This document shows positions 1 to 49,240 of a stretch of DNA of 64,000 nucleotides, in pieces. This DNA is from Candidatus Wolfebacteria bacterium (GTDB lineage: Bacteria; Patescibacteriota; Minisyncoccia; Phycocordibacterales; EsbW-18), in assembly GCA_022616195.1 (NCBI GenBank), contig JAKEFG010000015.1, positions 9,354 to 73,353 on the forward strand, read 5' to 3'. The notes below the pieces were generated by a model. It was given only the letters and a program-made list of their open reading frames with translations, did not search any database and was not told the DNA's origin. The position numbers were made by a program, and so were the translations under genes. Every line of letters begins with the position of its first letter. The first letter of the stretch is position 1.

Positions 1-8
1 GCTGGAGC

Positions 9-776
9 ATGGCGATGCTTATCATCATCTTTCCACTTTTTATTGTGCTCACTCGCATGGTGAACCAGAGTGTCCGACGGGAGCCTGCCAAAAAGGAGTT
101 GTGGATCAGACGCTGGCTTATCTACCTCACGCTTTTTATCGCAGGAGCGACGGTCGCTGTAGATCTTGTTGCTTTGGTAAACACCTTCCTTGGCGGGGAG
201 ATTACAGGGCGGTTTGCTGCCAAGGTGTTTGTGGTGTTTGTTGTTGCCCTCTCTGTGTTCGGCTACTATCTACTCTCCATTCGTGGTTATTGGGATACCC
301 GCGAGGCTACGTCAAAGCTCTTCGGGTGGGTTGTGGGGGTTGTTGCACTGGGTTCAATTATTGGAGGCTTCTTTATCATCGGTTCTCCCGCAACACAGCG
401 TGCGCTCCGTCTTGACCAGGAGCGCGTCTACAATCTCCAGAATATTCAGTGGCAGATTGTTGACTACTGGCAGAGCAAAGAAACGCTTCCGGCGGAACTC
501 GCATTGCTTGAGGATTCCATACGGGGATTCCGCGTGCCAGCTGACCCCGAGACAGGGGGACCGTATCGCTATGCGGTGACTGGCATGTATTCATTTGAGT
601 TGTGTGCGACATTTGTGCGCGCGAGTGCCGAAACACCCAAAGGAGTGCCGAGCACCCTACCGTACCGCGACGGAGGGCTGGACGAGAATTGGGAGCATGA
701 TGCGGGCGAGACATGCTTTACACGGACGATTGACCCGGAACTCTATCCACCTTATACCGAATCAGTAATCCGATAA
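9..776 (+). CDS. hypothetical multi-pass membrane protein; frame is open to the window edge, so the N-terminus may lie outside
   Basis: 255-aa ORF with at least four hydrophobic helices (IIIFPLFIVL, FIAGATVAVDLVALV, VFVVFVVALSVFGYYLL, GWVVGVVALGSIIGGFFII); no catalytic motif recognised. Confidence 0.5.
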   Translation: MAMLIIIFPLFIVLTRMVNQSVRREPAKKELWIRRWLIYLTLFIAGATVAVDLVALVNTFLGGEITGRFAAKVFVVFVVALSVFGYYLLSIRGYWDTREATSKLFGWVVGVVALGSIIGGFFIIGSPATQRALRLDQERVYNLQNIQWQIVDYWQSKETLPAELALLEDSIRGFRVPADPETGGPYRYAVTGMYSFELCATFVRASAETPKGVPSTLPYRDGGLDENWEHDAGETCFTRTIDPELYPPYTESVIR

Positions 777-857
777 CTAACGTACGATAAAAACATCGTC
801 CGCACTCATGCTACGTGAGGGCGGTTTGTTTCTGTGGTATAGTGTCATTCTACGGGG

Positions 858-3443
858 ATGGAACGCTATAACCACAAAGAAATAGAGAAGAGGTGGCAGA
901 AAAAGTGGAAAGAGCAAAAACTCTACGAAACGCCAGATACGGTGGAAGGGAAGGACAATTTTTACACGCTTGTGGAATTTCCGTATCCATCGGGTAATTT
1001 ACATGTTGGACATTGGTTTGCGTATATTGGTCCAGACATATTTGCACGCTTTATGCGTATGCAAGGAAAGAATGTACTTTTCCCGATCGGCTTTGATGCG
1101 TTTGGACTACCTGCTGAAAATGCTGCTATTAAGCGCGGTATTAATCCACGGGAGTGGACCTATTCGAACATCGCATACATGCGACAGCAGTTTGAAATGA
1201 TGGGAACCTCACTTGATTGGTCTCGAGAGATCATCTCGTGTGATCCCAGATATTATCGTTGGACACAGTGGCTCTTTCTGCAATTTTTCAAAAAAGGATT
1301 AGCATATCAAAAAGAAACGGAAGTGAACTGGTGTCCGTCGTGCAAGACGGTCTTGGCAAATGAGCAAGTGGTGACGGGTGTGTGTGAACGGTGTGGAACA
1401 GAAGTCGAAAAACGGCAGATGCTCCAATGGAATTTAAAAATCACCGACTATGCAGAGCGGCTCATTGATGATCTGGAAAAGCTCGATTGGCCAGAAGAAA
1501 TCAAACAAGCACAGCGGCATTGGATTGGTAGAAGTGAAGGTGCCCTCCTTACCTTTACTATCCAAGAACACAATGCGTCTGTAGAAATATTTACGACGCG
1601 TCCAGATACCTTGTTTGGTGCAACGTATCTGGTATTGGCTCCTGAACATACGCTCATTGAGTCCTTGAAAGATAAGATTACTAATTGGGATGAGGTGGAA
1701 GCGTATAGACAAACTGCACGGAAAAAAACAGATATTGAACGGACTGCTCTCGGAAAAGAAAAGACCGGAGTTGAGCTCCAGGGAATTACGGCACTCAATC
1801 CAGGCACGCAAGAGGAAATTTCCGTCTGGGTTGCTGATTATGTACTTTCTCACTATGGCACGGGCGCTATTATGGCGGTACCAGCACACGATGAGCGGGA
1901 TTTTGCGTTTGCACAGAAGTTTAACTTGGAAAAAGTTTGCGTTATCGAGCCGCGCTCTCTGGATGATTTTACCTTGCGCAAAATGCAGGGGGTGAGTGGG
2001 GAAGAAAAAATTACAGGTAGGGCTGTTGCATATTGGCCTGATGCCGGAGAGACACCGGAGCACGGTTTTAAGAGGGAGGTTGCCGCAATTCTTGCTGGAA
2101 AGTCCGTTTATGTCGGGGAAGGGACACTGGTGCACTCTGGAAAGTTTGATGGGATAACAACACAAGAGGCACGTGAGGCAATCACCAAAGCGGTTGGAGG
2201 CGAAATGAAAACAACCTACAAACTTCGCGACTGGACGGTGTCGCGACAGCGCTACTGGGGATGCCCGATTCCGGTCATTCACTGTGCAAAATGCGGTGTG
2301 GTACCCGTGCCGGAGCATGACCTACCGGTTGTGCTTCCCGAAATTGATGACTTCATACCGACAGGGAATGGTAAGTCGCCCTTAGCGAAAGTGGTGGATT
2401 GGGTGAATGTGAAATGCCCAGAATGTGGTGGAGATGCCGAGCGCGAGACCGACACCCTGGATACGTTTGTTGACTCGTCATGGTACTTTCTCCGCTACAC
2501 CGACCCGCACAACGACAAGGAGTTTGCATCGCGCGGGAAACAGGAGGCGTGGATGCCCGTTGGTTTCTATTCGGGTGGCGCGGAACACACGACCATGCAC
2601 CTTCTCTATTCCCGTTTCTTTCACAAGGTATTATTTGACCTCGGTTTGGTTGCCGACACGGAACCGTATGTTCGTAGAATGAATCGCGGACTCATCCTCG
2701 GTCCCGACGGCAACAAAATGAGCAAGTCAAAAGGAAACGTTATTGATCCCGATGATATGGTGGAGCGGCTCGGCGCGGATACCGTGCGGATGTATCTCGC
2801 GTTCATCGGTCCCTACAATGAAGTCGGCGCGTATCCGTGGAATCCGGACGGTGTTGTCGGTGTTCGACGGTTTCTTGAACGGGTGCATGTACTGGTTACA
2901 AAGATTGCAGAGGATAGGAAGAGACTGAAAGACGTCTCTGGCGGATCTGTTTTGATTCACAGAACTGTGAGGTTTGTAACTGAGGTTATCGGACGGCTCA
3001 AATTTAATACTGCCGTTGCACAACTCATGATTCAGTTTAATGGCGAGAATAGTGAACCTGATTGGCGAGGTAAACTTAATAACAAGGGAGAGTGGGAGAG
3101 TATGGAAGTAGACCTCATGGCCCTTAAGATGTTTTTAAAACTTCTTGCACCGTTCGCGCCGCACCTTGCGGAAGAATTGTGGTACCAACTGGGGAATACC
3201 ACCTCTGTCCATCTGGAGCCGTGGCCTGAGTACGACCCGACGCTCGTCGAGGAAGAACAGGTGACCATTGTGGTACAGGTGAACGGCAAGACGAGGGGAG
3301 AGTTCGAGGCAGCCCAAGATATTGATGAGACGGACGCGCGGGAGCGAGCACTTACTCTCCCGACGGTGGAAAAGTGGCTTGGGGGGAAGGAACCCAACAA
3401 AGTTGTCTATGTCCCCGGGCGGTTGGTAAATATCGTTGTCTAG
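858..3443 (+). CDS. leuS: leucyl-tRNA synthetase
   Basis: 861 aa; class I HIGH-type motif (PYPSGNLHVGHW), KMSKSKGNVIDP motif, CP1 editing region; ATG 14 nt downstream of TGgTATAGT extended -10 (835-843). Confidence 0.97.
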   Translation: MERYNHKEIEKRWQKKWKEQKLYETPDTVEGKDNFYTLVEFPYPSGNLHVGHWFAYIGPDIFARFMRMQGKNVLFPIGFDAFGLPAENAAIKRGINPREWTYSNIAYMRQQFEMMGTSLDWSREIISCDPRYYRWTQWLFLQFFKKGLAYQKETEVNWCPSCKTVLANEQVVTGVCERCGTEVEKRQMLQWNLKITDYAERLIDDLEKLDWPEEIKQAQRHWIGRSEGALLTFTIQEHNASVEIFTTRPDTLFGATYLVLAPEHTLIESLKDKITNWDEVEAYRQTARKKTDIERTALGKEKTGVELQGITALNPGTQEEISVWVADYVLSHYGTGAIMAVPAHDERDFAFAQKFNLEKVCVIEPRSLDDFTLRKMQGVSGEEKITGRAVAYWPDAGETPEHGFKREVAAILAGKSVYVGEGTLVHSGKFDGITTQEAREAITKAVGGEMKTTYKLRDWTVSRQRYWGCPIPVIHCAKCGVVPVPEHDLPVVLPEIDDFIPTGNGKSPLAKVVDWVNVKCPECGGDAERETDTLDTFVDSSWYFLRYTDPHNDKEFASRGKQEAWMPVGFYSGGAEHTTMHLLYSRFFHKVLFDLGLVADTEPYVRRMNRGLILGPDGNKMSKSKGNVIDPDDMVERLGADTVRMYLAFIGPYNEVGAYPWNPDGVVGVRRFLERVHVLVTKIAEDRKRLKDVSGGSVLIHRTVRFVTEVIGRLKFNTAVAQLMIQFNGENSEPDWRGKLNNKGEWESMEVDLMALKMFLKLLAPFAPHLAEELWYQLGNTTSVHLEPWPEYDPTLVEEEQVTIVVQVNGKTRGEFEAAQDIDETDARERALTLPTVEKWLGGKEPNKVVYVPGRLVNIVV

Positions 3444-3554
3444 AGGCGTTTCTGAGCTTGCCTTCTGCCATTTCTCAAGAAATGGTAGGGGGTTGACGGA
3501 GATAATGGTCGGTGCTAGAATGAGTGGCTGTGAGACAAGTACTACCTCTAAAAC

Positions 3555-3583
3555 TTGCACTTATTGCTCATTTGTGATATAGT
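3555..3583 (+). promoter_or_regulatory. sigma70-type promoter TTGCAC-17nt-TGaTATAGT; -10 ends 6 nt before ATG 3590 (leaderless mRNA implied); a second TTGACG-17-TAGAAT lies at ~3493-3521
   Basis: hexamers and spacing read directly from sequence. Confidence 0.5.
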
Positions 3584-3589
3584 GGTGCC

Positions 3590-4642
3590 ATGGCTACGAA
3601 AGCAAAATCGGAGAAAACGGTGAAATTGAACTTTGTCCCGAAACAGGTTGTCAAGCGCCTGCTTGCCGTGCTTCCTGATCGTGCTGTTGATGTCCTGACC
3701 CGTCGGTATGGACTCGGAAAGGACACCGGTCGTATGACGCTTGAAGCCATCGGTCAGATTTACGATATTACCCGAGAGCGCGTCAGACAGATCGAGAATT
3801 ACGCGCTCGGGGCCATCCGCAAGTCCGAAAGCTATGAGAAGGAAAGTAAGGCCATTGATGAGCTCGAGCGGCTCATCAACGCGATGGGGGTGGTTGTCCC
3901 GGAAGAATTTTTTCTCGATGAGGTTGCAAAGGACAAGAGCACCCAGAACTACATACACTTTCTGTTGGTGCTCGGTCACCCGTTCACTCGTTTCAAGGAA
4001 GACGAACATTTTACGCATCGCTGGCATATTGATGCAGATGTCGCCCGTGGTGTTGAGGAGGCGCTGAAGAACTTGTACGCGTCACTGCCGGACGAAGAGC
4101 TTCTGTCGGAGCCGGAGCTCATGACGAGATTTCTGTCACATCTCAAAGAGCTCGCGGACCAGTACCGCGACGAAGAAATTCTGAAACGCTGGCTTTCGCT
4201 CTCGAAGAAAATTGCCAAAAGCCCTCTGGGCGATTGGGGACGTGTTGAGTCAACTGCGGTGAGCCCCCGCGGCATTCGCGACTATGCGTATCTGGTGATT
4301 CTTCGGCACGGCTCACCGCTCCACTTCACCGAAGTGGCGAAACAAATCAGCAAGCTATTTGACCGGCGGGCACACACTGCAACCGCGCACAACGAGCTCA
4401 TAAAGGACCAACGGTTCGTGCTTGTCGGACGCGGGCTCTATGCACTCTCGGAGTGGGGATACATGCAAGGTGTCGTCAAAGACGTTATTGTCGAGATTCT
4501 CAAACAGCACGGTCCGCTGACCAAAGAGGAAATCATTGACCGGGTGCTCAAGGAACGCTACGTGAAGGGAAATACTATCGCGGTCAATCTGCAGGATCCG
4601 ATGTTTAAGAGGACAAAGGACGGGAAGTACGCGCTCGCGTAG
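3590..4642 (+). CDS. sigma-70 region-4-like HTH protein with ~280-aa uncharacterised C-terminal extension (not a complete sigma factor)
   Basis: N-terminal LLAVLPDRAVDVLTRRYGLG..TLEAIGQIYDITRERVRQIENYALGAIRK matches sigma70 region 4 / FliA-type HTH; regions 2 and 3 absent; remainder helical with no known motif. Confidence 0.8.
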   Translation: MATKAKSEKTVKLNFVPKQVVKRLLAVLPDRAVDVLTRRYGLGKDTGRMTLEAIGQIYDITRERVRQIENYALGAIRKSESYEKESKAIDELERLINAMGVVVPEEFFLDEVAKDKSTQNYIHFLLVLGHPFTRFKEDEHFTHRWHIDADVARGVEEALKNLYASLPDEELLSEPELMTRFLSHLKELADQYRDEEILKRWLSLSKKIAKSPLGDWGRVESTAVSPRGIRDYAYLVILRHGSPLHFTEVAKQISKLFDRRAHTATAHNELIKDQRFVLVGRGLYALSEWGYMQGVVKDVIVEILKQHGPLTKEEIIDRVLKERYVKGNTIAVNLQDPMFKRTKDGKYALA

Positions 4643-4784
4643 CAGCTCGGAACACTCTCCTTCAAAATTCCAGATGCCTGCATGCGCCGCTCTTGAGCGG
4701 CTGTTGGGCTCTGTTGTTAACAGAAACATACAGCTGGTATACATTCGCGGCAGAAACCAGTGGTGTGTTGGGAAGGAGGTTCAG

Positions 4785-5117
4785 ATGGAGAAAGAGGAAA
4801 TCCTACATCAAGCAAATGAGATCGTCGGCGAGCACGGTCTTGTCGCCGAGCTTCTTGAAGGGGTTCTATCTGTAGGTGTTGGTGGGGATGAGCGAACCTA
4901 CTTACCCGTGCTTTGTCTGCGGGGTTCGTTTCCAGGCGACGCTTCGAGAGATTTCTACCAAGCTCACGAACGAGTTACCTATCAACAGGGTGACATTCGA
5001 GCTTGCTCGTGCGTCCCAGTAACAGCGGAGTCACGTGTCTCGGGAAGTTATCGTACGGCGGCTTCCCCGTTTCTTTTCCTGCGAACCACTTACTACCCAC
5101 TACAAACTACGGACTGA
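4785..5117 (+). pseudogene. guaA: relic of GMP synthase C-terminal (dimerisation) domain; ATP-PPase and GATase domains absent
   Basis: GVLSVGVGGDERTYLPVLCLRGSFPGDASRDFYQAHERVTY aligns with GuaA C-terminal consensus ([39 protein letters not shown]); sequence after this diverges; strong SD AGGAGG 5 nt upstream and TGgTATACA -10 at ~4735-4743. Confidence 0.45.
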
Positions 5118-5134
5118 AGTGGTATCATGACAGC

Positions 5135-6430
5135 ATGGACATTCTCCGTGAACTTTTTACCGGTCCGGGTCTTAACCTCACTCTGAGCGGTCTGCGCCTG
5201 CTTGCGCTTGCCGCGCCGGTGTGGCTGCCGCTTGTGCTCGGTATCGGTTTTTGGAAGGTGTGGGTAGGGTATCGGCGAGCGGCGTTTATTAGTAGCATGG
5301 AGTGGGTATTTCTCGAGATTCTATTACCCCAGGAAATCACCCGCTCGCCGCTCGCCATGGAACTGGTGCTCAATACGTTCCAACAGAGCTTTGGCGAGGC
5401 GCATGCATATGAAAAGTACTGGAAAGGTGGGGTGCGTCCGTGGACGTCGCTTGAGCTTGTATCTGTTGAAGGATCCGTGCATTTCATCATCCGGATACAT
5501 AAGGGAAGCCGTGCACTCATCGAGTCACAGATTTACGCAGAATATCCCGATGTCGAGATACACGAGGTTCCTGACTATATCCACGGCATTGATTTCGACA
5601 ATGAACTCGTGCAGTTATGGGGCGCTGAGTTTGCGCTTACCAAAGCCGACCCGTATCCTATCAAAACCTACGTCGACTACGGTCTCGATCGCGATCCGAA
5701 AGAAGAGCAAAAGATAGATCCGATTGCGCCGGTCATTGAATGGCTCGGCTCGCTCGGTGCCGGCGAGCAGGCATGGATTCAAATACTCGTTCGTCAGCAT
5801 AAGGACGAAACGCCTAAAATGGTCGGACCGTTCCGAAAACTTGTTGAGTTCAAGGCAGACAAGAAAAAGCTCTCCGAAAAAATCAAGTTCTTCCCGACGA
5901 CTGATGCATGGAAGGATGCAGTAAAGAAAGAAATCGAGAAAGTCGTGAAGGAGCGGAAAATCCAGAGTAAGGATGAGGAAAGCGGTCCCGTGAAACTCAC
6001 GCGCATGGAAGAAGAGGTCATCACGGCGCTCGAGCGGAGCATCACCAAGGCGGCATTCGATGTTGGTATTCGCGGTATGTATGTCGCTGAAAAGGACAAG
6101 TTCAATCCGGCGAACATCGGCGGGCTCATCGGCTCGTTCAAGCAGTACAGCACGAATCACCTCAATGGCTTCAAGCCGGGTAAGACCACCGGCGTGAAAG
6201 CGCCCTGGCAGGACCCGTTCGGCACGCGGGTGCCGAGGCGCAAGCGCATCATGCTTGATGCCTACAAGCGCCGGAGTTATTTTCATTCGCCGTACAAGCG
6301 CAAGCCTTTCATTCTGAACACGGAAGAGCTCGCGACGATGTATCACTTCCCGGGACGCGTTTCTACGACGCCGACATTCAAGCGTCTTGAGGCACGAAAG
6401 GCGGAGCCACCAGCACACTTGCCGATGTAA
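5135..6430 (+). CDS. conserved hypothetical protein, N-terminal membrane anchor (LRLLALAAPVWLPLVLGIGFW), charged helical middle, C-terminal FILNTEELATMYHFPG motif
   Basis: long ORF with good coding character; start chosen at ATG 5135 because the upstream part of the ORF overlaps the guaA relic in another frame. Confidence 0.7.
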   Translation: MDILRELFTGPGLNLTLSGLRLLALAAPVWLPLVLGIGFWKVWVGYRRAAFISSMEWVFLEILLPQEITRSPLAMELVLNTFQQSFGEAHAYEKYWKGGVRPWTSLELVSVEGSVHFIIRIHKGSRALIESQIYAEYPDVEIHEVPDYIHGIDFDNELVQLWGAEFALTKADPYPIKTYVDYGLDRDPKEEQKIDPIAPVIEWLGSLGAGEQAWIQILVRQHKDETPKMVGPFRKLVEFKADKKKLSEKIKFFPTTDAWKDAVKKEIEKVVKERKIQSKDEESGPVKLTRMEEEVITALERSITKAAFDVGIRGMYVAEKDKFNPANIGGLIGSFKQYSTNHLNGFKPGKTTGVKAPWQDPFGTRVPRRKRIMLDAYKRRSYFHSPYKRKPFILNTEELATMYHFPGRVSTTPTFKRLEARKAEPPAHLPM

Positions 6431-6438
6431 TTCGACGT

Positions 6439-7407
6439 ATGACACGTCTTCTTGACTCGGTGAATACATTCCTGCCGCTTTCGTGTCTCACGGCGATTGC
6501 TGTTTTACTTGGGACAGCCTTGGTTCTTGTGGTGAGTCCGCCGCATGACTTTCCGAAAGGACAAGTAGTGGTGATCCCATATGGGGCAACACTCTCCGAG
6601 GTCGCTCGTGAGTTTGACTCACTTCAGTTGGTGAGATTTTCCACAGTGCTCAAATCGGTGATTCTGTTGCTCGGAGCATCTGAAACCATTCAGGCTGGTG
6701 ATTATATGTTTGCCGAACCGGTTGGTGTGATTACTTTGGGGCAGCGTATTGTGCGCGGAGACTTTGGATTGGATTACATCAAGGTACGTCTACCCGAGGG
6801 TGCTACACGGTATGTAATGGCAGATATTCTTACGGCAGCGCTACCGCACTTTGAGCGGGAACAATTTCTTGAGATAACAGAGGGATATGAAGGGTTTTTG
6901 TTTCCAGATACATACTTCTTTTCTCCTTCAGTAACTACCGAGGACGTTATGAACGCCCTGAGAGAGACTTTTGTTGAGAGGACAAGACCACTGAGAGATG
7001 AGGTGGCAGTGTCAGGGCATTCGTTTAGCGAGATTGTAACTATGGCATCGCTTGTAGAGCGTGAGGCACACGATCCGAGAGACCGGCGTCTTATCTCTGG
7101 AGTTTTGTGGAGACGTATTGCTATTGATATGCCGCTTCAGGTTGATGCGCCGTTCGTGGCACTCTTTGGTAAGGCATCTCATGAATTGACGCAAGACGAC
7201 CTTGCAACAACATCGCCGTACAACACGTATGTCCACAAGGGACTTCCACCAGAGCCTATTGGAAGCCCAGGACTTGATGCCATCCACGCCGCCCTTGACC
7301 CAACGGAATCGGACTACCTCTACTACCTTTCAGATACTAAAGGGGTGACCTATTACGCCGTCACATTTGAAGAGCACAAACGAAACAGAGAAATGTACCT
7401 CAACTAG
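6439..7407 (+). CDS. mltG: endolytic murein transglycosylase MltG/YceG
   Basis: N-terminal TM, YceG-like domain, C-terminal YNTYVHKGLPPEPIGSPG motif. Confidence 0.88.
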   Translation: MTRLLDSVNTFLPLSCLTAIAVLLGTALVLVVSPPHDFPKGQVVVIPYGATLSEVAREFDSLQLVRFSTVLKSVILLLGASETIQAGDYMFAEPVGVITLGQRIVRGDFGLDYIKVRLPEGATRYVMADILTAALPHFEREQFLEITEGYEGFLFPDTYFFSPSVTTEDVMNALRETFVERTRPLRDEVAVSGHSFSEIVTMASLVEREAHDPRDRRLISGVLWRRIAIDMPLQVDAPFVALFGKASHELTQDDLATTSPYNTYVHKGLPPEPIGSPGLDAIHAALDPTESDYLYYLSDTKGVTYYAVTFEEHKRNREMYLN

Positions 7408-7473
7408 GCCTTTATTGAGTAACCTTCGGTATGTTCGTACCCAGTGCTCTGCACATGATTTCCACAGAGCGGC

Positions 7474-7501
7474 TTGACTCTCAATTGCGAGGGAGTATAC
7501 T
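7474..7501 (+). promoter_or_regulatory. sigma70-type promoter TTGACT-16nt-TATACT upstream of the 23S-5S locus
   Basis: consensus-like hexamers. Confidence 0.5.
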
Positions 7502-7581
7502 TGGGGTATATATGAAAGCGACACAGAACTACATAGAGAGGCGGAGAACGTAGCTAGGCTATTTTGGTAGTGTGCCAAGTC

Positions 7582-7604
7582 TCCGCTCCGAGAGCGGATT
7601 TTTT
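7582..7604 (+). terminator. intrinsic-terminator-like hairpin (tccgctc-cga-gagcgga) followed by TTTTTT, ~75-95 nt downstream of the 7474 promoter
   Basis: 7-bp GC-rich stem plus T6 tract. Confidence 0.5.
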
Positions 7605-7614
7605 AGTTCTTGTT

Positions 7615-7650
7615 CCCGAGGTGCAACCTGTTCGCAGGTTGCACCTCGGG
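7615..7650 (+). other. perfect 16-bp stem hairpin with UUCG tetraloop (cccgaggtgcaacctg-ttcg-caggttgcacctcggg) in the 23S leader
   Basis: exact inverted repeat. Confidence 0.7.
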
Positions 7651-8330
7651 AGACGGAACGGAAAACACGATGGGCTGACTGGACGTTGACAAGCAAATAC
7701 ACGATAGAGAATCAAAGTCTCCGCTGACACGCGATGCGTACAGGCGGAGCAAGCAGGTAATTAAGTAAGGTATCAATGCTTGACATTGATACGCGGTTTT
7801 TAGATTTCCTAATAGGAGATCTGATAAGGGCGCACGGTGGATGCCTTGGCTCTAAACGGCGATGAAGGACGCGGCATGGCGGCGATATGCTTCGGGGAGG
7901 TGCCTAGCAACCTACGATCCGGAGATTTCCGAATGGGGAAACCCTGCGAGGTCAACCCTCGTGATCCTCTGATTCATCAGAGGAGGCACACCCGGGGAAG
8001 TGAAACATCTCAGTACCCGGAGGAACAGAGACTAATAAGTATTTCCTGAGTAGCGGCGAGCGAAATGGAAGAAGCCCAAACTCTGTGAAGCGAAAGCTAT
8101 GCAGAGGGTAGTAGGGTAACAACGTCATCTTTGATGAGGAGAGTTATAAAATGTTCTTCGTTAGCTGAATTCGTTGGAAAGCGAAGCCCGAGAGGGTAAT
8201 AGCCCCGTAATGCGAAAACGGAATGTCTCTCTTGTTGTTATTCCTGAGTACCCCGAGACATGAATAGCTCGGGGGAATCTGCCGGTACTAACCGGTAAGG
8301 CTAAATACGTTTAGAGACCGATAGTGAACC

Positions 8331-8361
<31 letters not shown>

Positions 8362-9636
8362 GGAGAGGGGGGTGAAATAGACCTGAAACCGTGCGTCTAC
8401 AAGGAGTCGAAGTGTCTTTTGGCACAACGGCGTGCCTATTGAAGAATGAGCCAACGAGTGTACGTGTACTGCTCGGCTAAGTCCTTTGTCGGACGAAGCC
8501 ACAGGGAAACCGAGTGTTAACAGCGCGAACTATAACTTTTTGCCGTGCGTGTGTTTCCTAGGACGCATGGTAAAGAGTTATCTGTAGTACATGTACGACC
8601 CGAAGCCGGGTGATCTACCCATGACCAGGGTGAACCTTACCGAAAGGTGGGGGGAGGCCCGAACCGATACGCGGTACAAAACGTTCGGATGAGTTGTGGG
8701 TCGGAGTGAAAAGCTAATCGAACCCGGTAATAGCTGGTTCTCTCCGAAATAGCTTTAGGGCTAGCGTTATGTGTTTCCCTCGGGGGTAGAGCACTGGAAG
8801 GAGTAGACAGGGCGAAAGCTCGCTTCTCCTATCAAACTCCGAATACCGAGGGTTAGAGCATAGCAGTTAGACTATGGGCGCTAAGGTCCATTGGTCAAAA
8901 GGGAAACAGCCCAGACCTCAAGCTAAGGTCCCTAAATCGACACTAAGTGCACGTAAGGAGGTGCAATTTCTCTGACACTGAGGAGGTTGGCTTAGAAGCA
9001 GCCATCCTTTAAAGAAAGCGTAACAGCTCACTCACTTAGAGATTGTGCGCCGCAAATAATCGGGGCTAAGTGTCGTACCGACGCTGAGGATTGTATCCCG
9101 TTTCGACGGGGTGCAGTGGTAGGAGAGCATTTCTATTGCTATGAAGCCCCTGTGTAAACCGGGGTGGAGCGATGGGAAGAGAGAATGTTGGCACAAGTAA
9201 CCGCAAGGCAGGTGCGATCCCTGCCCGCCGAAATCCCAAGGTTTCCTTGGCAATGTCAATCAGCCAAGGGTTAGTCGGTCCTAAGGAGATGGCGAAAGCC
9301 GTATCCGATGGACACACGGTTAATATTCCGTGACTTCCTGTTCATTCGATGGAGTAACGGAGGGTTGTACACGTTGCACATTATTGGATTTGTGTGCATG
9401 CTTTGAGGGAGTCAGTTAGGCAAATCCGGCTGACGCCACCCCGAGAAGTGTGCGGAATTCCGCTACGGCGGGAGAACAACGTGGAGCACGCTCCCGAGAA
9501 AAACTTCTAAGGTTCATGTCCAGGAAACCGTACCGCAAACCGACACAGGTGGGAAGGTCGAGAAGACCAAGGCGAACGGGTGAGAGATCCTCAAGGAACT
9601 CGGCAAAAAAGCGGCCGTAAGTTCGCAATAAGGCCT

Positions 9637-10028
9637 CCCAGCACTAGATTAAGTTCTTAAATGTAAACAGTAAGGAGAAAAAGCATGACAAATGAGCAGT
9701 ACCTAAAGGCAATCGGTGAAATGAAAAAAATAATACCGGCAGAAATTTTACCGGAGAGGATTGACACAAGCCGTAAATTCTCTGAAACTTCTGTAGAACA
9801 GAAGTTAAAACATTCTCTATATTTGTTAGAGAATGTCCCGACTTTTCTCGAGGTAGGAAAACGAGAAAAATCATCAAGACATTTAGCTTTTGCTCAGGCA
9901 ATCCTTTGGTCTTTGGACATGTTGGCAATCGACCAATTAATGGATTTCAACAGAAGATGATCATAATCGGGTGGTGATGATTATTTTTCACGCTCCCCGA
10001 ATTTTTAAGAATTTAATCTAGTGCTGGG
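9637..10028 (+). other. IVS-like insertion in a variable 23S helix (approx. E. coli helix 63 region), closed by a ~25-bp stem with one G-U; ~340 nt inserted
   Basis: cccagcactagattaagttcttaaa ... tttaagaatttaatctagtgctggg are reverse complements; flanking sequence continues into GACTGTTTACCAAAAACACAG (E. coli ~1770-1785). Confidence 0.65.
9685..9960 (+). CDS. 91-aa protein encoded inside the 23S IVS-like insertion (hypothetical, all-helical)
   Basis: ATG preceded by TAAGGAG 7 nt upstream; terminator-like hairpin plus T-run after the stop (~9955-9990). Confidence 0.55.
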   Translation: MTNEQYLKAIGEMKKIIPAEILPERIDTSRKFSETSVEQKLKHSLYLLENVPTFLEVGKREKSSRHLAFAQAILWSLDMLAIDQLMDFNRR

Positions 10029-10185
10029 CGCAGCGAAAGTATCCCTGGCGACTGTTTACCAAAAACACAGCTCCCTGCGAACTCGTAAGAGGATGTATAG
10101 GGGGTGACGCCTGACCAATGCCAGAAGGTCAAACGCGGAGGGTACATGTGACTTCGGTTATATGTGCTGGACTGCGTAAGCCCTG

Positions 10186-10224
<39 letters not shown>

Positions 10225-10883
10225 CAATTCCTTGTCTGGTAAGTTCAGACGTGCACGAATGGCGTAACGACTGGGGAACTGTCTCGAGGATTCGCCCGGT
10301 GAAAATGCAATGGGGGTGAAGATGCCCTCTACCTGCAGTTAGACGAAAAGACCCCAGGAGCTTTACTGTAACTTGATAGTGGGGGTACGTAGTATATGCG
10401 TAGCATAGGTGGGAGACGTTGAAGCGAAGGTCTCGGCTTTCGTAGAGTCGCCAGTGAAATACCACTCTTATATAGCGTGCTTTCTAACCTCGACGGCAAA
10501 AACGGCGGGGGACAGTATCTGGTAGGCAGTTTTAGTGGGGCGCTATCCTCCTAAAAAGTAACGGAGGAGCCTATTACGGTCAGCTAGGCGCGAATGGAAA
10601 CCGTGCCGATAGTGTAATGGCAGAAGCTGGCCTGACTGCAAGGGGTACATCCCGAGCAGGCGCGAAAGCGGAGCATAGTGAACCGAGAGTTCCCTTTAGA
10701 CGGGGCTCGAGATTAACGGATAAAAGTTACCCTGGGGATAACAGGCTGGTCCTGCCTAAGAGTCCATATCGACGGCAGGGTTCGGCACCTCGATGTCGGC
10801 TCACCGTATCCTGGCGCTGGAGAAGGTGCCAAGGGTTTGGCTGTTCGCCAATTAAAACGGTACGCGAGCTGGGTTCAGACCGT

Positions 10884-11360
10884 TCTGGGCATGAATCATA
10901 AGATATGAATCATGAATAGAGCAGTCTGAATCCGCTCATAACGACACAATCGTTTTTTCGTCTATGAAATAAGTCCCGATTTTGATGTATCAAAATCGAG
11001 GATCCCGACCAGAGCGTCGGGAATAGAATCAACCTAATCACGGCGGTCATGTGTAGTAATACGCATGTATCAAGCTGACCCCGATTTTGATGTATCAAAT
11101 CGAGGATCCCGACCAGAGCGTCGGGACTAATATCGGTGAATTTCTAGCTTCTAGGTAAGAAGAAGGAGGACACCGAGGGAATGGTTCGACTTTGCTCACC
11201 ACGAGCAAATAGAATTCGGCCCGTAGAGACTGAACGTCAGCGTTCCTTACTCATGTTTTGTGTTATACGCGACATGTGTTGGGAATATGCTACAGTCCGA
11301 TCCCGCCGGTAACGGCGGTGTGGCTAGACGCTAGGAGCTAGCGGCTAGTTGCTACAGTTG
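10884..11360 (+). mobile_element. ORF-less group-I-like intron inserted exactly after U2593 (E. coli numbering) of 23S
   Basis: exon reads GGGUUCAGACCGU | CGUGAGACAGG, matching E. coli G2581-U2593 | C2594-G2603; 5' exon ends in U and insert ends in G, as for group I introns; longest ORF <65 aa. Confidence 0.6.
10975..11126 (+). repeat. two direct copies (10975-11022 and 11080-11126) of a 48-bp element, each made of two hairpins (cgattttgat-gta-atcaaaatcg and tcccgac-cagagc-gtcggga), separated by 57 nt, inside the L2593 intron
   Basis: copies identical except one A in the A-run. Confidence 0.85.
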
Positions 11361-11423
11361 CGTGAGACAGGTTGGTCTCCTATCTACTGCAGGCGTTGAT
11401 TCTTGAGGGGAGCTGCTCCTAGT

Positions 11424-12251
11424 AAGTAATTGCTACTCTTCGGAGAGATCCGAAGTGACAATGTGGCTTATAACGGTGAAGCCTTCATATGATTACTGTC
11501 CGAGGATTGTGAATAGCTATTGGTCCAGCTATGGTATAATTCGCTTGCGGACCGTAATCCGCTGCAAGGTAATACCGTGGGAAGTCGATCTCAAACACAC
11601 ACAGCGTATATAGCGGGTTTTCTTGATGGTGACGGCAGTTTGATGCTGCAGATCAAAAAACGATCTGATACAAAACGAGGTATTCGTTTTATGGCAACAA
11701 TCTGTCTGTATCAAGATACTCGCCATGAGAGGCCGCTGTGCTGGATGCGTGAAGTTTTAGGCATTGGATATCTATCTCGACGCCGTGACGGCATTACAGA
11801 GTTACGTATCAATGGCTTTAGTCAGTGCAAAACAATTCTTGAACAACTAGTACCGTATATACGGTTTAAGAAGGTTCAAGTGAGTGCATTGCTCGAGGCA
11901 TGTACGGTACTGTGTACGACGCCGTTTTCAAAGCTCACGAAACAACAGCAGAAGTATTTGGTTGACCGTATTGTGATCATTCAACATGAAAACTATACAA
12001 CCAAGTCAAAAAAGCGTAGGGAAGAGCTGTATGCATGTTTGGATTTGACCCCGTAACGACTTGTTCATGTAGTTGCCACTACATGGCGGACTTGCTGATG
12101 TATTGAATCAGGAATGTATTCCTGACAATCTCAGTGGGTAACATGCCGCCACCCTCGTCCTCCATCTCATGGGGAACGGGTGAAGATATAGTCTATGCTC
12201 CTGGAAACAGGGGAGTAATCTTGTTTTTCAAAAGTGAAACAAGAGATACAT
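11424..12251 (+). mobile_element. 828-nt intron in the sarcin-ricin loop of 23S (after U2656), carrying a LAGLIDADG homing-endonuclease gene
   Basis: flanking exons join to GCUGCUCCUAGU|ACGAGAGGACCGGAGUGGAC, identical to the E. coli SRL sequence; 5' exon ends U and insert ends G. Confidence 0.75.
11520..12056 (+). CDS. single-motif LAGLIDADG homing endonuclease, I-CreI-like
   Basis: YIAGFLDGDGS motif; ~170 aa; GIGYLSRRRDG and LEQLVPYIRFKKVQVSALLEAC segments parallel I-CreI GVGYVRDRGS / FLTQLQPFLKLKQKQANLVLKII; ORF-track start is TTG 11520; in-frame GTG 11577 lies after a perfect TGgTATAAT (11531-11539). Confidence 0.85.
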   Translation: MVQLWYNSLADRNPLQGNTVGSRSQTHTAYIAGFLDGDGSLMLQIKKRSDTKRGIRFMATICLYQDTRHERPLCWMREVLGIGYLSRRRDGITELRINGFSQCKTILEQLVPYIRFKKVQVSALLEACTVLCTTPFSKLTKQQQKYLVDRIVIIQHENYTTKSKKRREELYACLDLTP

Positions 12252-12545
12252 GACGAGAGGACCGGAGTGGACTGACCGCTGGTGTACGAGCTGTCCTGCC
12301 AAGGGCATCGCTCGGTAGCTATGTCGGGACGGGATAACTTCTGAAAGCATCTAAGAAGGAAGCCCACCCCAAGATTAGGAATCATTAAGACCCGTGAGAG
12401 ATGATCACGTTGATAGGCACCAGGTGGAAGCACAGTAATGTGTTGAGCCGAGGTGTACTAATTCGTCGAGTATCTCCTATTAGGGAATCTGAAAATCGCT
12501 TAGTTCCTGCTTTTCTATCGTGTAGGCGACTGACTTTAAGTGTTG

Positions 12546-12656
12546 TGTGTTGGTGGTTCGACGCTGTGGAGACACCCGTTCTCATTCCGAACACGGCAGT
12601 TAAGCACAGTAGTGGCGATGGTACTCGCAAGGGGAGAGTAGCTAGCCGCCAACACA
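12546..12656 (+). rRNA. rrf: 5S ribosomal RNA
   Basis: CCGUUCUCAUUCCGAACACGG..GUAGUGGCGAUGGUACUCGCAAGGGGAGAGUAGCUAGCCGCC; ends pair as helix I. Confidence 0.85.
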
Positions 12657-38890: not shown

Positions 38891-38986
38891 GAACTCGTTT
38901 TATCTGGTGTGAGTGTTCCTGCCTGCGGGGTCATTATTTTTCACTCAAGATAGACCAAAGAACCTTTTACTGGTTTAATTGGGTCT

Positions 38987-40210
38987 ATGTCTACACGGAA
39001 GAACATATTTCTTTGGGCTTTATACGACTTCGCAAACTCAGTAGTTTCAATTGTATTTTTTCTTTATTTCTCACAGTGGATTGTTATTGACCAAGGTGTT
39101 GCAGACATCTGGTTTAATCTTGTTTTTACCATAGCCGCAGTGCTTTTGTTACTCTCTGTTCCTACCACGGGGGCATTGTTAGATAAATACTGGAGACGTA
39201 TTACTGGTCTGCGCTATACCACGTTTGGTACCGTCATTTCGTATGGACTATGCGGTGTTCTCGCTATTTTGGGATACGGTGTTCCAGCCCTCATATTGTT
39301 TGGAGTCGGTTGGTATATCTATCTTCTTTCTTTCACGTTTTATACTCCTCTTCTCAATGACATAGCGTCCCCCGAAAGACGTGGCCGTGTTTCGGGTTAC
39401 GGTATAGCGGCGAATTACTTAGGACAAATAGCCGGCTTGATACTTGTTCTACCGTTTGCCACGGGGAGTGTTAACTTATTCGGGGGTTCTCTTAGGGCCG
39501 AGACGTTATTGCCTTCCGTGGTTGTATTTTTGTTGCTTGCTTTACCGATGCTTATTTTCTTTAAAGAACCACACAAAGAGCAAAAATCATTTTCGTTGTC
39601 AGTAGAAATCAAGCAATCATTGGTGAAGACCAAGGAACTTTTTATGGTCTCTGGCGTTCTCGCTTTTTTCCTAGCGTATTTTTTCTTTAACGACGCTATT
39701 TTGACCGCGGCTAACAACTTCTCCATTTTCCTTGAACAGGTGTGGAAGGTTCCTGATACTACCAAAACGTATATACTTCTCGGGATCCTAATTACTTCTG
39801 CGATTGGTGGGCTTGTATCTGGTCCGATTGCAGACAGATTTGGTCACAAAAAGACGCTTATTGTTATACTCTCTGGGTTGGTTGTCATTTTGCCGTTTAT
39901 TGCTTGGGTAAGTAACTTTACCCTGTTTGTCGTCGCCACTGCGCTAATGGGGCTGTGGTTTGGCTCAAACTGGACAGTGTCTCGTTCATTGATGAGTCAC
40001 CTTGCTCCGACAAGTGGGCACAACCTCACGTTTGGATATTTTGGTTTAGTAGAACGAGCATCGTCTTTAGTGGGCCCTGTCGTATGGGGACTCATAGCCA
40101 CAAATCTTGTGTCTATAGGGCCTACGAGGTATAGAATAGCAGCAACAATCGTAACGCTGTTCATTCTCTTGGGTCTGGTTGCGATGAGGAAGGTCCCTAA
40201 GGGAGCTTGA
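38987..40210 (+). CDS. MFS transporter, UMF1/Atg22-like family
   Basis: 12 TM; N-terminal LWALYDFANS motif characteristic of UMF1. Confidence 0.85.
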   Translation: MSTRKNIFLWALYDFANSVVSIVFFLYFSQWIVIDQGVADIWFNLVFTIAAVLLLLSVPTTGALLDKYWRRITGLRYTTFGTVISYGLCGVLAILGYGVPALILFGVGWYIYLLSFTFYTPLLNDIASPERRGRVSGYGIAANYLGQIAGLILVLPFATGSVNLFGGSLRAETLLPSVVVFLLLALPMLIFFKEPHKEQKSFSLSVEIKQSLVKTKELFMVSGVLAFFLAYFFFNDAILTAANNFSIFLEQVWKVPDTTKTYILLGILITSAIGGLVSGPIADRFGHKKTLIVILSGLVVILPFIAWVSNFTLFVVATALMGLWFGSNWTVSRSLMSHLAPTSGHNLTFGYFGLVERASSLVGPVVWGLIATNLVSIGPTRYRIAATIVTLFILLGLVAMRKVPKGA

Positions 40211-48118: not shown

Positions 48119-48145
48119 TTGTCAACACACTCGTTGTGGTATAAC
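48119..48145 (+). promoter_or_regulatory. TTGTCA-15nt-TGgTATAAC promoter; -10 ends 6 nt before the mnmA ATG (leaderless)
   Basis: extended -10 with TG. Confidence 0.5.
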
Positions 48146-48151
48146 AAACCA

Positions 48152-49240
48152 ATGGGAAAGGGGCAAAAAAGGATTTTCGTTGCCATGAGCGGAGGGGTTG
48201 ATTCTTCAGTTGCGGCAGCTTTGCTCAAAGAATCCGGGCATGAGGTAACCGGAGTGTTCATCAAGGGCTGGTATCCGGAGTGGCTCCCGTGCAATTGGCG
48301 CGAAGAGCGCCGTGACGCGATGCGGGTTGCAACACGGCTCAGCATCCCGTTTGAGACGTTTGACTGCGAGGACGCGTACAAAAAGAATGTTGCCGATTAC
48401 ATGATTGCCGAATACCAAACAGGGCGGACGCCTAATCCCGATGTTGTATGCAACAAAACCATCAAGTTCGGCGCATTTTTCGACGAAGCCCTGCGGTGCG
48501 GTGCCAACATGATTGCCACAGGGCATTATGCCCGACTTCGTCAGGCAAAATCAAAAAATAAAAATCAAAAAGTAAAAATCGAACTGTTGACTGGGGTGGA
48601 CGAGAACAAAGACCAGAGTTATTTTCTCTGGGCGCTCTCACAGAAGGTTCTGGGACGGACGTTTTTCCCGGTGGGTGATTACACGAAGCCGGAGGTGCGG
48701 ACAATTGCAAGACGGTTCGGACTTCCAACTGCGGAGAAGAAAGAAAGCCAGGGGCTTTGTTTCCTTGGTCATGTGGATGTGCACGAGTTTCTCGGTCACT
48801 ATACAACGATTGTACAGGGTGATGTTCTGGATACATCGGGCCGCGTTATTGGGAAGCACAAAGGAGCGATTGTGTACACACTTGGACAACGCCACGGATT
48901 TACGATTACTTCGCAGCGTTCCGACGAAGGCAAGCATTACGTTGTGGCGAAGGACATGAGGCGCAACACAATAACCGTATCGGAACGTTTACAGGAAGAA
49001 CACGCGGTTTCCGAGGTAGCGCTTGCGGAAGCGAACTGGATTGGCGCGGAGCCGCGCGTGGGCATGTCGTATATGGCGCGCTTTCGGTACCGGCAGAAGC
49101 TCCAAAGGTGCACGATTATCGAGGCGGCTGCCGCAGGTGCGCGCATTCGTTTTGACACGGTACAGACGGCAGTGTCGCCCGGTCAATCATTGGTACTTTA
49201 TGACGGCGAGGTGTGCCTTGGCGGCGGGGTCATTGTCTAG
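48152..49240 (+). CDS. mnmA: tRNA-specific 2-thiouridylase
   Basis: PP-loop SGGVDSS, catalytic Cys pattern, C-terminal barrel; contains a low-complexity KSKNKNQKVK insert. Confidence 0.92.
   Translation: MGKGQKRIFVAMSGGVDSSVAAALLKESGHEVTGVFIKGWYPEWLPCNWREERRDAMRVATRLSIPFETFDCEDAYKKNVADYMIAEYQTGRTPNPDVVCNKTIKFGAFFDEALRCGANMIATGHYARLRQAKSKNKNQKVKIELLTGVDENKDQSYFLWALSQKVLGRTFFPVGDYTKPEVRTIARRFGLPTAEKKESQGLCFLGHVDVHEFLGHYTTIVQGDVLDTSGRVIGKHKGAIVYTLGQRHGFTITSQRSDEGKHYVVAKDMRRNTITVSERLQEEHAVSEVALAEANWIGAEPRVGMSYMARFRYRQKLQRCTIIEAAAAGARIRFDTVQTAVSPGQSLVLYDGEVCLGGGVIV

What the first reader, a model, noticed from the sequence alone, without database searches (positions are those of the whole stretch)
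4785..5117. Relic of the GMP synthase C-terminal domain retained with its own promoter and strong SD
An ~110-aa ORF matches the GuaA dimerisation/C-terminal domain around the GV(M/G)GD(G/E)R(T/K)Y core, but lacks the glutamine amidotransferase and ATP-pyrophosphatase domains. The last ~40 residues no longer align, and the frame overlaps the start of the next gene. It is nevertheless preceded by a TGgTATACA -10 and AGGAGG, so it may be expressed as a mini-protein or be a recently decayed gene. In a lineage lacking de novo purine synthesis this documents gene loss in progress.
Basis: partly seen in the sequence, partly recalled or inferred. Interest (0 to 1): 0.55.

Follow-up and report, generated by a model that had tools for sequence, protein, structure and literature searches.

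The report
Frameshifted stand-alone GMP-synthase-like mini-gene
The ORF is not a leftover of a full-length guaA gene but a recently frameshifted copy of a small, uncharacterised ~80-residue protein family of Patescibacteria that consists of a single GMP-synthase dimerisation-type domain, so it is a modest pseudogene finding that happens to point to an undescribed mini-protein family.

Summary
The 110-aa ORF at 4785-5117 exists and has the SVGVGGDERTY core, an AAGGAGG Shine-Dalgarno and a promoter-like site. Its Pfam GMP_synt_C hit is sub-threshold (14.6 bits, E=0.035, cutoff 27).

Homology searches found about 384 cluster representatives. Most are 79-170 aa stand-alone proteins made of one GMP-synthase dimerisation-type domain. 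They are closest to the D1 sub-domain of long (human-type and Woesearchaeota) GMP synthases. A homologue model has pLDDT 95 and TM 0.72-0.76 to GMPS structures.

The window copy is frameshifted:
- Family residues 1-52 are read in the ORF's frame (4785-4940).
- Residues 53-80 are read in the +1 frame (4936-5019, stop 5020-5022).

This explains why the last ~58 residues "no longer align". Restoring five bases (a second GCGAC) gives an ungapped 80-aa family member. The shifted half keeps every invariant residue, so the lesion is recent.

In 70 Patescibacteria loci the flanking genes (sigma70_r4/HARE-HTH and DUF8128) are adjacent, with no mini-gene and no guaA between them. The ORF is therefore not an in-situ guaA relic, and it does not overlap the real start of the next gene (5135). 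No function is known. The conserved GDxR loop corresponds to the XMP-phosphate-binding arginine that GMPS donates across its dimer interface.

The parts
4717..4745 (+). Promoter-like site: TTAACA-17-TACATT.
   Evidence: 1 site found against 0.5 expected. This is a consensus match only. TATACA lacks the conserved final T. TGGTATAAT-like motifs are enriched in the window (13 found, 6.4 expected) and often sit just upstream of start codons.
4773..4779 (+). Shine-Dalgarno AAGGAGG, 5 nt upstream of the ATG at 4785
   Evidence: Read directly from the sequence.
4785..4940 (+). 5' part of the mini-gene in its native frame. It covers aa 1-52 (MEKEEIL...SVGVGGDERTY...LRGSFPGD) and encodes helix 1 and the beta-hairpin that carries the GDxR loop.
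   Evidence: tblastn with family members gives 55-64% identity over aa 1-51, E down to 2e-18. hmmsearch matches profile positions 8-63 at E=6e-22. In the model of the ORF as called, pLDDT is above 90 for residues 1-50.
4936..4944 (+). Frameshift junction. GCGAC (4936-4940) is needed in both frames. Restoring a second GCGAC copy (5 nt) gives ...FPGDATLRE... with the family's exact spacing.
   Evidence: The two HMM pieces abut at profile position 63. The repaired 80-aa sequence aligns without gaps to 52 family members. The 5-nt deletion itself is an inference.
4936..5022 (+). 3' part of the mini-gene, now in the +1 frame: ATLREISTKLTNELPINRVTFELARASQ plus TAA at 5020-5022. It encodes helix 2 and the last strand.
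   Evidence: hmmsearch matches profile positions 63-90 at E=1.1e-8. tblastn E=2e-7. All family-invariant residues (N, L, P, N, R, V) are kept.
4941..5117 (+). Out-of-frame tail of the ORF as called (aa 53-110). It is not homologous to anything.
   Evidence: No family or Pfam match beyond aa 52. pLDDT is 42-63 from residue 60 onward.
3590..4642 (+). Upstream neighbour: sigma70 region 4 + HARE-HTH protein. It is not part of the feature.
   Evidence: Pfam. It is conserved and directly adjacent to the DUF8128 gene in 70 related loci.
5135..6430 (+). Downstream neighbour: DUF8128 protein, 431 aa, real start at ATG 5135. It is not part of the feature.
   Evidence: Gene call and PF26449 in L002. Homologues align from residue 1.

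Best explanation
Window 4785-5022 is a recently inactivated (frameshifted) copy of a small stand-alone gene. The gene belongs to an unnamed family of roughly 80-100-residue proteins, found at least in Paceibacterota and other uncultured genomes. Each member is a single GMP-synthase dimerisation-type domain (helix, beta-hairpin, helix, strand).

The family is closest to the D1 sub-domain of long GMP synthases. It keeps the GV(G/Q)GDxR(T/S)Y loop. In GMPS the arginine of that loop is donated across the dimer or pseudo-dimer interface to the phosphate of XMP. The family lacks the PP-loop ATP-pyrophosphatase core, the GATase domain and the C-terminal KPPxTIEWE XMP-binding loop, so it cannot make GMP.

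In this genome an out-of-frame lesion at 4936-4944 moved the second half of the gene into the +1 frame. The lesion is most simply the loss of one copy of a GCGAC tandem, 5 nt. Translation from the intact Shine-Dalgarno and ATG would give 52 native residues followed by 58 unrelated ones, lacking helix 2 and the last strand, and most likely non-functional.

The mini-gene sits as a lineage-specific insert inside an otherwise conserved LeuRS / sigma-HARE-HTH / DUF8128 / YceG block. It did not arise by erosion of a guaA at this position.

Shown: the homology, the fold, the frameshift, the absence from syntenic loci and the existence of the family. Inferred: the 5-nt deletion, loss of function, and the nucleotide-phosphate-binding/dimerisation role of intact members.
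For: Family:
- Intact homologues P0002-P0007 are 81-143 aa.
- A profile search of 1.84 billion representatives gives 384 hits at E<=1e-3 and 67 at E<=1e-10. Most are 79-170 aa with the domain at the C-terminus.
- NCBI names two of them hypothetical proteins, one in a Paceibacterota bacterium.
- Purifying selection: L001 against L005 gives pN 0.18, pS 0.72, dN/dS about 0.08.

Fold:
- The AF2 model of P0004 has pLDDT 95.3.
- The top 15 Foldseek PDB hits are all GMP synthases. The first 14 have TMq 0.72-0.76; the fifteenth, human 2vxo, has TMq 0.67.

D1-likeness:
- The best PDB sequence hit is human GMPS 490-569, ungapped. Bacterial GuaA needs an 11-residue gap.
- In six-frame searches minis score 102-128 bits, the D1 of 600-630-aa GMPS 59-72 bits, and most canonical GuaA 46-58 bits.
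- D1 is residues 450-578 of human GMPS (PMC9312489). Arg524 in D1, and Arg249 of the Methanocaldococcus jannaschii ATPPase subunit (MjATPPase), bind the XMP phosphate from the partner sub-domain or chain (PMC10526850).

Frameshift:
- tblastn and hmmsearch place family residues 1-52 in frame 3 and residues 53-80 in frame 1.
- All other members examined are in one frame.
- The same sequence is present in a Logan assembly of SRR16971108, 100% identical over 8019 nt.
- The junction is not in a homopolymer.
- Recent origin: pN of the shifted half (0.30-0.42) is no higher than that of the N-terminal half (0.31-0.40).

Synteny:
- In 70 loci the sigma/HARE-HTH gene is followed directly by the DUF8128 gene. 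The median gap is 135 nt among the 47 closer loci (sigma-like protein more than 50% identical) and ranges from -18 to 585 nt across all 70. The gap in the window is 492 nt.
- No trace of the family was found in any of the 80 related loci fetched around DUF8128 homologues, even at E<=10.
Against: - The window and the Logan contig may derive from the same reads, so a consensus error is not strictly excluded.
- No read-level data or intact allele of this same gene was found.
- The exact ancestral junction (5-nt deletion, 2-nt deletion or 1-nt insertion) cannot be decided.
- The function of intact family members is untested. No conserved gene neighbour was found.
- Pfam scores of the family straddle the gathering threshold (23-32 bits).
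Confidence: 0.7

Rival explanations
1. One reading: this is the eroded remnant of a full-length guaA that once sat here. It has lost its GATase and ATP-pyrophosphatase domains, and it documents ongoing loss of purine metabolism.
For: Sequence and fold homology to the GMPS C-terminal domain. The gene is indeed damaged.
Against: - The nearest relatives are intact mini-proteins of the same length with their own start codons.
- The family resembles the D1 sub-domain and lacks the 11-residue insertion and the KPPxTIEWE end of bacterial GuaA.
- 70 syntenic loci have no guaA or remnant at this position.
- Only 142 nt of non-coding DNA lie upstream, and they show no GATase or PP-loop remnants.
Confidence: 0.04
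2. The gene is intact in the organism, and the frameshift is a sequencing, assembly or consensus artefact.
For: The shifted half is perfectly conserved at all invariant positions. That is what an artefact would look like. The data are metagenomic.
Against: - The identical sequence appears in a k-mer-based Logan assembly.
- The junction is not in a homopolymer. The simplest repair is 5 nt, which is not a typical read error.
- Long genes in the window (861, 1066 and 1222 aa ORFs) are unbroken, so the assembly is not indel-prone.
Confidence: 0.13
3. The gene is expressed through programmed +1 ribosomal frameshifting, for example tRNA-Phe slipping on UUU-C at 4929-4932, or through transcriptional slippage. 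This would yield a full-length domain.
For: UUU C allows re-pairing of tRNA-Phe in the +1 frame. The Shine-Dalgarno, the ATG and the downstream frame are intact.
Against: - No other family member examined is frameshifted, so the site is not conserved.
- There is no known stimulatory element such as a rare or stop codon in the A site.
- The profile supports FPGD in frame 3, beyond the UUU. A slip at UUU would shorten the loop by two residues.
Confidence: 0.03
4. The 110-aa ORF as called is the functional product: a half-domain (helix 1 plus the GDxR hairpin) with a new C-terminal tail.
For: The ORF is open for 110 codons and has a strong Shine-Dalgarno. The first 50 residues are modelled confidently.
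Against: - The tail has no homologue anywhere among 5.8 billion proteins except the identical sequence.
- Tail pLDDT is 42-63.
- 58 stop-free codons at about 53% GC is not unusual by chance, roughly 6% (my own estimate).
- The alternative frame still encodes the conserved half.
Confidence: 0.05

Closest known systems
D1 sub-domain of long GMP synthases (human GMPS residues 450-578, PDB 2VXO; also 600-630-aa GMPS of Woesearchaeota and other uncultured organisms)
   Same: - Same fold.
- Ungapped sequence alignment to human residues 490-569.
- Same GVQGDxR(S/T)Y loop, whose arginine (Arg524) contacts the XMP phosphate.
- No C-terminal KPPxTIEWE loop.
(PMC10526850)
   Different: D1 is an internal insertion in a 600-700-aa enzyme and packs in cis against D2. 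Here the domain is a free-standing protein of about 80 aa with its own start and stop codons, and no partner has been identified.
C-terminal dimerisation sub-domain of bacterial GuaA and the archaeal GMPS ATPPase subunit (Pfam PF00958 GMP_synt_C; PDB 1GPM, 2DPL, 6JP9)
   Same: Fold match at TMq 0.72-0.76. The conserved GDxR loop and the NRV strand are present.
   Different: - The family lacks the roughly 11-residue insertion between strand 2 and helix 2.
- It lacks the terminal XMP-binding loop.
- It is not attached to a PP-loop domain.
- Pfam scores are at or below threshold.
Split (two-subunit) GMP synthases of archaea
   Same: They are a precedent for GMPS modules being encoded as separate polypeptides (PMC10526850).
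   Different: The archaeal split lies between the GATase and the ATPPase, and the dimerisation sub-domain stays fused to the ATPPase. A separately encoded dimerisation-type domain has not been described in the papers searched.

Membership tests
Glutamine-hydrolysing GMP synthase GuaA (NCBIfam NF000848 / TIGR00884) | N-terminal class-I glutamine amidotransferase domain | tested here: not met
   The ORF is 110 aa. No GATase similarity was found in it, in its flanks, or anywhere in the window.
Glutamine-hydrolysing GMP synthase GuaA (NCBIfam NF000848 / TIGR00884) | PP-loop ATP-pyrophosphatase core (SGGVDS) | tested here: not met
   Absent from the ORF. The only PP-loop match in the window is MnmA at 48119-49240.
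Glutamine-hydrolysing GMP synthase GuaA (NCBIfam NF000848 / TIGR00884) | C-terminal XMP-binding loop KPPxTIEWE, and a score above the model cutoff | tested here: not met
   The repaired protein ends ...FELARASQ. NCBIfam scores are 15.6 bits for both models, against cutoffs of 400 (NF000848) and 338.75 (TIGR00884).
Pfam PF00958 GMP_synt_C domain | Score at or above the gathering threshold (27 bits) | tested here: not met
   The ORF as called scores 14.6 bits. Intact family members score 23.4-32.4 bits, so some pass.
Pfam PF00958 GMP_synt_C domain | GMPS dimerisation-domain fold (helix, beta-hairpin, helix, strand) | tested here: met
   Tested on homologue P0004: pLDDT 95.3, and the top 15 PDB hits are all GMPS, with TMq 0.72-0.76 for the first 14. 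For the window ORF only the first half can adopt the fold.
Pfam PF00958 GMP_synt_C domain | Conserved GVxGDxRxY loop carrying the trans-acting arginine | tested here: met
   SVGVGGDERTY at aa 29-39. Correspondence to human Arg524 follows from the alignment and from PMC10526850.
Stand-alone D1-like mini-protein family (unnamed; P0002-P0076 and others) | Full-length match to the family profile in one reading frame | tested here: not met
   The match is split: profile positions 8-63 in frame 3 and 63-90 in frame 1.
Stand-alone D1-like mini-protein family (unnamed; P0002-P0076 and others) | Significant similarity over both halves, family length and own start codon | tested here: met
   E=6e-22 and E=1e-8 for the two halves. 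The repaired 80-aa sequence aligns without gaps, and M1 aligns with the family N-termini.
Pseudogene (frameshift class) | Reading frame disrupted relative to intact homologues, with homology continuing in another frame | tested here: met
   The same sequence is in a second assembly. Read-level confirmation is not testable here.

The most novel reading that the evidence does not exclude
Free-standing D1-like mini-proteins may be trans-acting half dimer interfaces. They would dock onto the dimerisation sub-domain of a GMPS ATP-pyrophosphatase, or onto another nucleotide-monophosphate enzyme. OPRTase-mini and MOSC-mini fusions exist. The mini-protein would supply the phosphate-binding arginine loop, as D1 does in cis in human GMPS. 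Such genes could also be the evolutionary source of the D1 insertion, which reviews describe as absent from bacterial and archaeal GMPS but which is present in a Woesearchaeota enzyme. The window copy would then be a recently lost accessory of nucleotide salvage in a Paceibacterota lineage.
Probability: 0.12. Interest if true: 0.6.

Novelty: new variant of a known kind. Interest (0 to 1): 0.3.

Why it matters
For this genome the result is mainly an annotation correction.
- The locus should be annotated as a frameshifted small gene (4785-5022), not as a 110-aa protein or a guaA fragment.
- It says nothing about purine-pathway loss.

The wider point is modest but real. A well-known enzyme sub-domain, the GMPS dimerisation/XMP-phosphate-binding module, exists as a conserved stand-alone mini-protein family in several hundred sequence clusters from uncultured organisms, including Paceibacterota. 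These proteins are annotated as hypothetical, and their scores hover around the Pfam threshold. The family is closest to the D1 insertion of eukaryote-type GMPS. It could therefore inform how that insertion arose, and whether such modules act in trans on nucleotide enzymes in organisms that depend on salvage.

Tried and rejected
- Searching JGI metagenome contigs for the junction with a variable gap (GGTTCGTTTCCAGG N0-12 CTTCGAGAGATTTCTACC), to find an intact allele, gave no match.
- The protein search with the ORF as called found only the identical sequence and one homologue at 64% identity. No close intact allele is known.
tblastn of the repaired protein against 50,697 phage records gave no match. 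There is therefore no evidence of a phage origin.
- A search for repeats flanking the insert found only short chance-level matches. GC content is the same as in the neighbouring genes. There is no sign of a mobile element or recent transfer.
- Gene-neighbourhood inference found no shared partner across seven different contexts: FAD oxidase, HD_4, LeuRS/TatD, SET/Ddl, MauE-like, unknown ORFs, and sigma-HARE-HTH/DUF8128.
- The metagenome scan with the family alignment mostly returned full-length GMPS and only two further minis.
- P0077, an 807-aa repeat protein, matched the profile 12 times. Its sequence shows many near-identical tandem repeats, so I judged the match spurious.
- dN/dS beyond the L001/L005 pair is uninformative because synonymous sites are saturated. 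Two sequences (L003, L086) were out of register in that quick calculation.
- Whether the genome has a guaA elsewhere could not be tested from one 64 kb window.

Full report
**What is at the coordinates.**
- An ATG-initiated ORF runs from 4785 to 5117 on the + strand and encodes 110 aa.
- AAGGAGG lies at 4773-4779, five bases before the ATG.
- TGGTATACA is at 4735-4743. The consensus scan reports an overlapping TTAACA-17-TACATT site at 4717-4745.
- The protein contains SVGVGGDERTY at residues 29-39.
- Against Pfam the ORF gives only a sub-threshold hit to GMP_synt_C (PF00958): E=0.035, 14.6 bits against a gathering score of 27, covering residues 23-47.

**The ORF belongs to a family of small stand-alone proteins.**
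- A word-indexed search with the ORF found only the identical protein and one 93-aa homologue, P0002.
- Searching with P0002 found five more proteins of 81-143 aa.
- A profile of these six was scanned by HMMER over 1.84 billion cluster representatives. It gave 384 hits at E<=1e-3 and 67 at E<=1e-10. Most are 79-170 aa with the domain at the C-terminus.
- The consensus is ...ANEIxxPYGLxAExxxxxxSVGVxGDxRTYxPVxxLxGPFPGxxxLxxxSTEITNxLPxNRVTfEl.
- NCBI calls two members "hypothetical protein", one in a Candidatus Paceibacterota bacterium. IMG calls one "GMP synthase PP-ATPase subunit".
- Members score 23-32 bits against PF00958, straddling the threshold. They are far below the NCBIfam GuaA cutoffs.
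- The one pair with unsaturated synonymous sites (L001 and L005) has pN 0.18, pS 0.72 and dN/dS of about 0.08. The family is therefore a real protein family under constraint.
- A few members carry N-terminal fusions: an orotate-phosphoribosyltransferase-like domain (P0029), a MOSC domain (P0026), and an unassigned domain of about 65-90 aa.

**Fold and closest relatives.**
- An AlphaFold2 model of P0004, built with a 53-sequence alignment, has mean pLDDT 95.3 and the order helix, strand, strand, helix, strand.
- The top 15 Foldseek PDB hits are all GMP synthases. TMq is 0.72-0.76 for the first 14 and 0.67 for the fifteenth, human 2vxo.
- By sequence, the family profile's best solved-structure match is human GMPS residues 490-569, aligned without gaps. 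Bacterial enzymes need an 11-residue gap.
- That human segment lies in the D1 sub-domain, residues 450-578 (PMC9312489).
- In six-frame searches of fetched loci:
  - minis score 102-128 bits;
  - the first of the two C-terminal sub-domains of 600-630-aa GMPS scores 59-72 bits;
  - most canonical 520-550-aa GuaA score 46-58 bits.
- One such long enzyme is annotated in a Woesearchaeota archaeon.
- The family's conserved GDxR loop aligns with human Arg524. According to PMC10526850, Arg524, like Arg249 of the Methanocaldococcus jannaschii ATPPase subunit acting from the neighbouring chain, contacts the phosphate of XMP.
- The family lacks the C-terminal KPPxTIEWE loop, the PP-loop core and the GATase domain. 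It cannot be a GMP synthase.

**The window copy is frameshifted.**
- tblastn with family members matches residues 1-51 to 4785-4937 in frame 3, at 55-64% identity and E down to 2e-18. It matches the C-terminal third to 4942-5019 in frame 1.
- hmmsearch on six-frame translations gives profile positions 8-63 in frame 3 (E=6e-22) and positions 63-90 in frame 1 (E=1.1e-8). A TAA stop lies at 5020-5022.
Residues 53-110 of the called ORF are out-of-frame sequence.
- The bases GCGAC at 4936-4940 are needed in both frames. Inserting a second GCGAC gives ...FPGDATLREISTKLTNELPINRVTFELARASQ, an 80-aa protein. It aligns to 52 family members without a gap and raises the Pfam score to 24.0 bits over profile positions 18-81.
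- Loss of one unit of a 5-nt tandem is my inference. Other indels that restore the frame cannot be excluded.
- The shifted half keeps every family-invariant residue. Its non-synonymous divergence from relatives (pN 0.30-0.42) is no greater than that of the in-frame half (0.31-0.40). The lesion is therefore recent.
- In a model of the ORF as called, pLDDT is above 90 for residues 1-50 and 42-63 from residue 60 onward.

**Is the frameshift real?**
- A Logan assembly of run SRR16971108 contains a contig 100% identical to window 1-8019, including the same 110-aa ORF.
- The junction is not in a homopolymer.
- Long genes in the window are unbroken.
- None of the other family members examined at the DNA level is frameshifted. 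This argues against a conserved recoding site.
- I cannot exclude that both assemblies rest on the same reads.
- No intact allele was found, either in the protein collection or with a junction-spanning pattern in JGI metagenomes.

**Genomic context.**
- The window is from a Patescibacteria (Paceibacteria-like) genome. Evidence: a 23S rRNA match 3152 nt long against a 2925-position model, a LAGLIDADG ORF between 23S and 5S, and best matches to Lloydbacteria and Paceibacterota MAGs.
- The order LeuRS, sigma70_r4/HARE-HTH protein, DUF8128 protein, YceG is conserved.
- In 70 related loci the sigma-like gene is followed directly by the DUF8128 gene. The median gap is 135 nt among the 47 closer loci and ranges from -18 to 585 nt across all 70. 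The gap in the window is 492 nt.
- None of the 80 related loci contains any trace of the family, even at E<=10.
- The mini-gene is thus a lineage-specific occupant of this intergenic position. No guaA has ever been seen there.
- GC content matches the neighbouring genes, and there are no flanking repeats.
- The next gene starts at ATG 5135. The repaired mini-gene ends at 5022 and the called ORF at 5117, so neither overlaps it.
- No GMPS is encoded in the 64 kb window. The only PP-loop hit is MnmA.
- Other family members sit in unrelated contexts with no shared neighbour. There is no phage match.

**Mechanism.**
- Shown: this is a single GMPS dimerisation-type domain, D1-like, with the arginine loop retained and no catalytic parts.
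- Inferred: intact members act as small dimerisation and nucleotide-phosphate-binding modules, either as homodimers or docked on a partner nucleotide enzyme. This is consistent with the PRTase and MOSC fusions. No partner has been identified.
- In this genome the product is most probably inactive. It would have 52 native residues carrying helix 1 and the hairpin, but would lack helix 2 and the last strand.

**Verdict.**
- This is a recently frameshifted member of an uncharacterised stand-alone mini-protein family, not a guaA relic documenting purine-pathway loss.
- Interest is low to moderate. Most of it lies in the family rather than in this locus.

Noticed in passing
window 5120-5128 and 5135: TGGTATCAT, an extended -10-like motif, ends only 6 nt before the ATG of the DUF8128 gene. 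This suggests a leaderless or near-leaderless transcript. Similar arrangements occur at 835-843 (LeuRS ATG at 858) and 38971-38979 (ATG at 38987). TGGTATAAT with up to one mismatch occurs 13 times against 6.4 expected.
   Followed up: partly
window 7814-12654: The 23S rRNA match is 3152 nt long against a 2925-position model, which implies insertions. A 1.58 kb spacer separates it from the 5S rRNA. That spacer holds a 178-aa LAGLIDADG homing-endonuclease ORF at 11520-12056. No 16S rRNA is present in the window.
   Followed up: partly
window 858-7407; loci L006-L080: The four-gene block LeuRS, sigma70_r4 + HARE-HTH protein, DUF8128 membrane protein, YceG is conserved in order across dozens of Patescibacteria MAGs. 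The tight sigma-like/DUF8128 pairing may indicate a functional link.
   Followed up: partly
P0078, P0083, P0091 and others; loci L090-L095, L102, L146: Prokaryotic GMP synthases of 600-630 aa carry two tandem dimerisation sub-domains (D1-like plus D2). One is annotated in a Woesearchaeota archaeon. Reviews describe the D1 insertion as absent from bacterial, protozoal and archaeal enzymes (PMC10526850).
   Followed up: partly
P0029 (306 aa), P0026 (238 aa), P0009-P0015: The mini domain occurs fused behind an orotate-phosphoribosyltransferase-like domain, behind a MOSC domain, and behind an unassigned N-terminal domain of about 65-90 aa shared by several members.
   Followed up: partly
L086/L087 5001-5243: Family member P0025 lies next to, and divergent from, a 1006-aa LeuRS in a MAG labelled Anaplasmataceae. 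In the window the mini-gene is also about 1.3 kb from LeuRS. This is possibly coincidence, and the taxonomic label of that MAG looks doubtful.
   Followed up: no
window 4683-4700: The short hairpin GCCGCTCTTGAGCGGC lies just after the sigma-like gene's stop and before the mini-gene's promoter-like site. It was not called as a terminator by the scan because it has no T-run.
   Followed up: no
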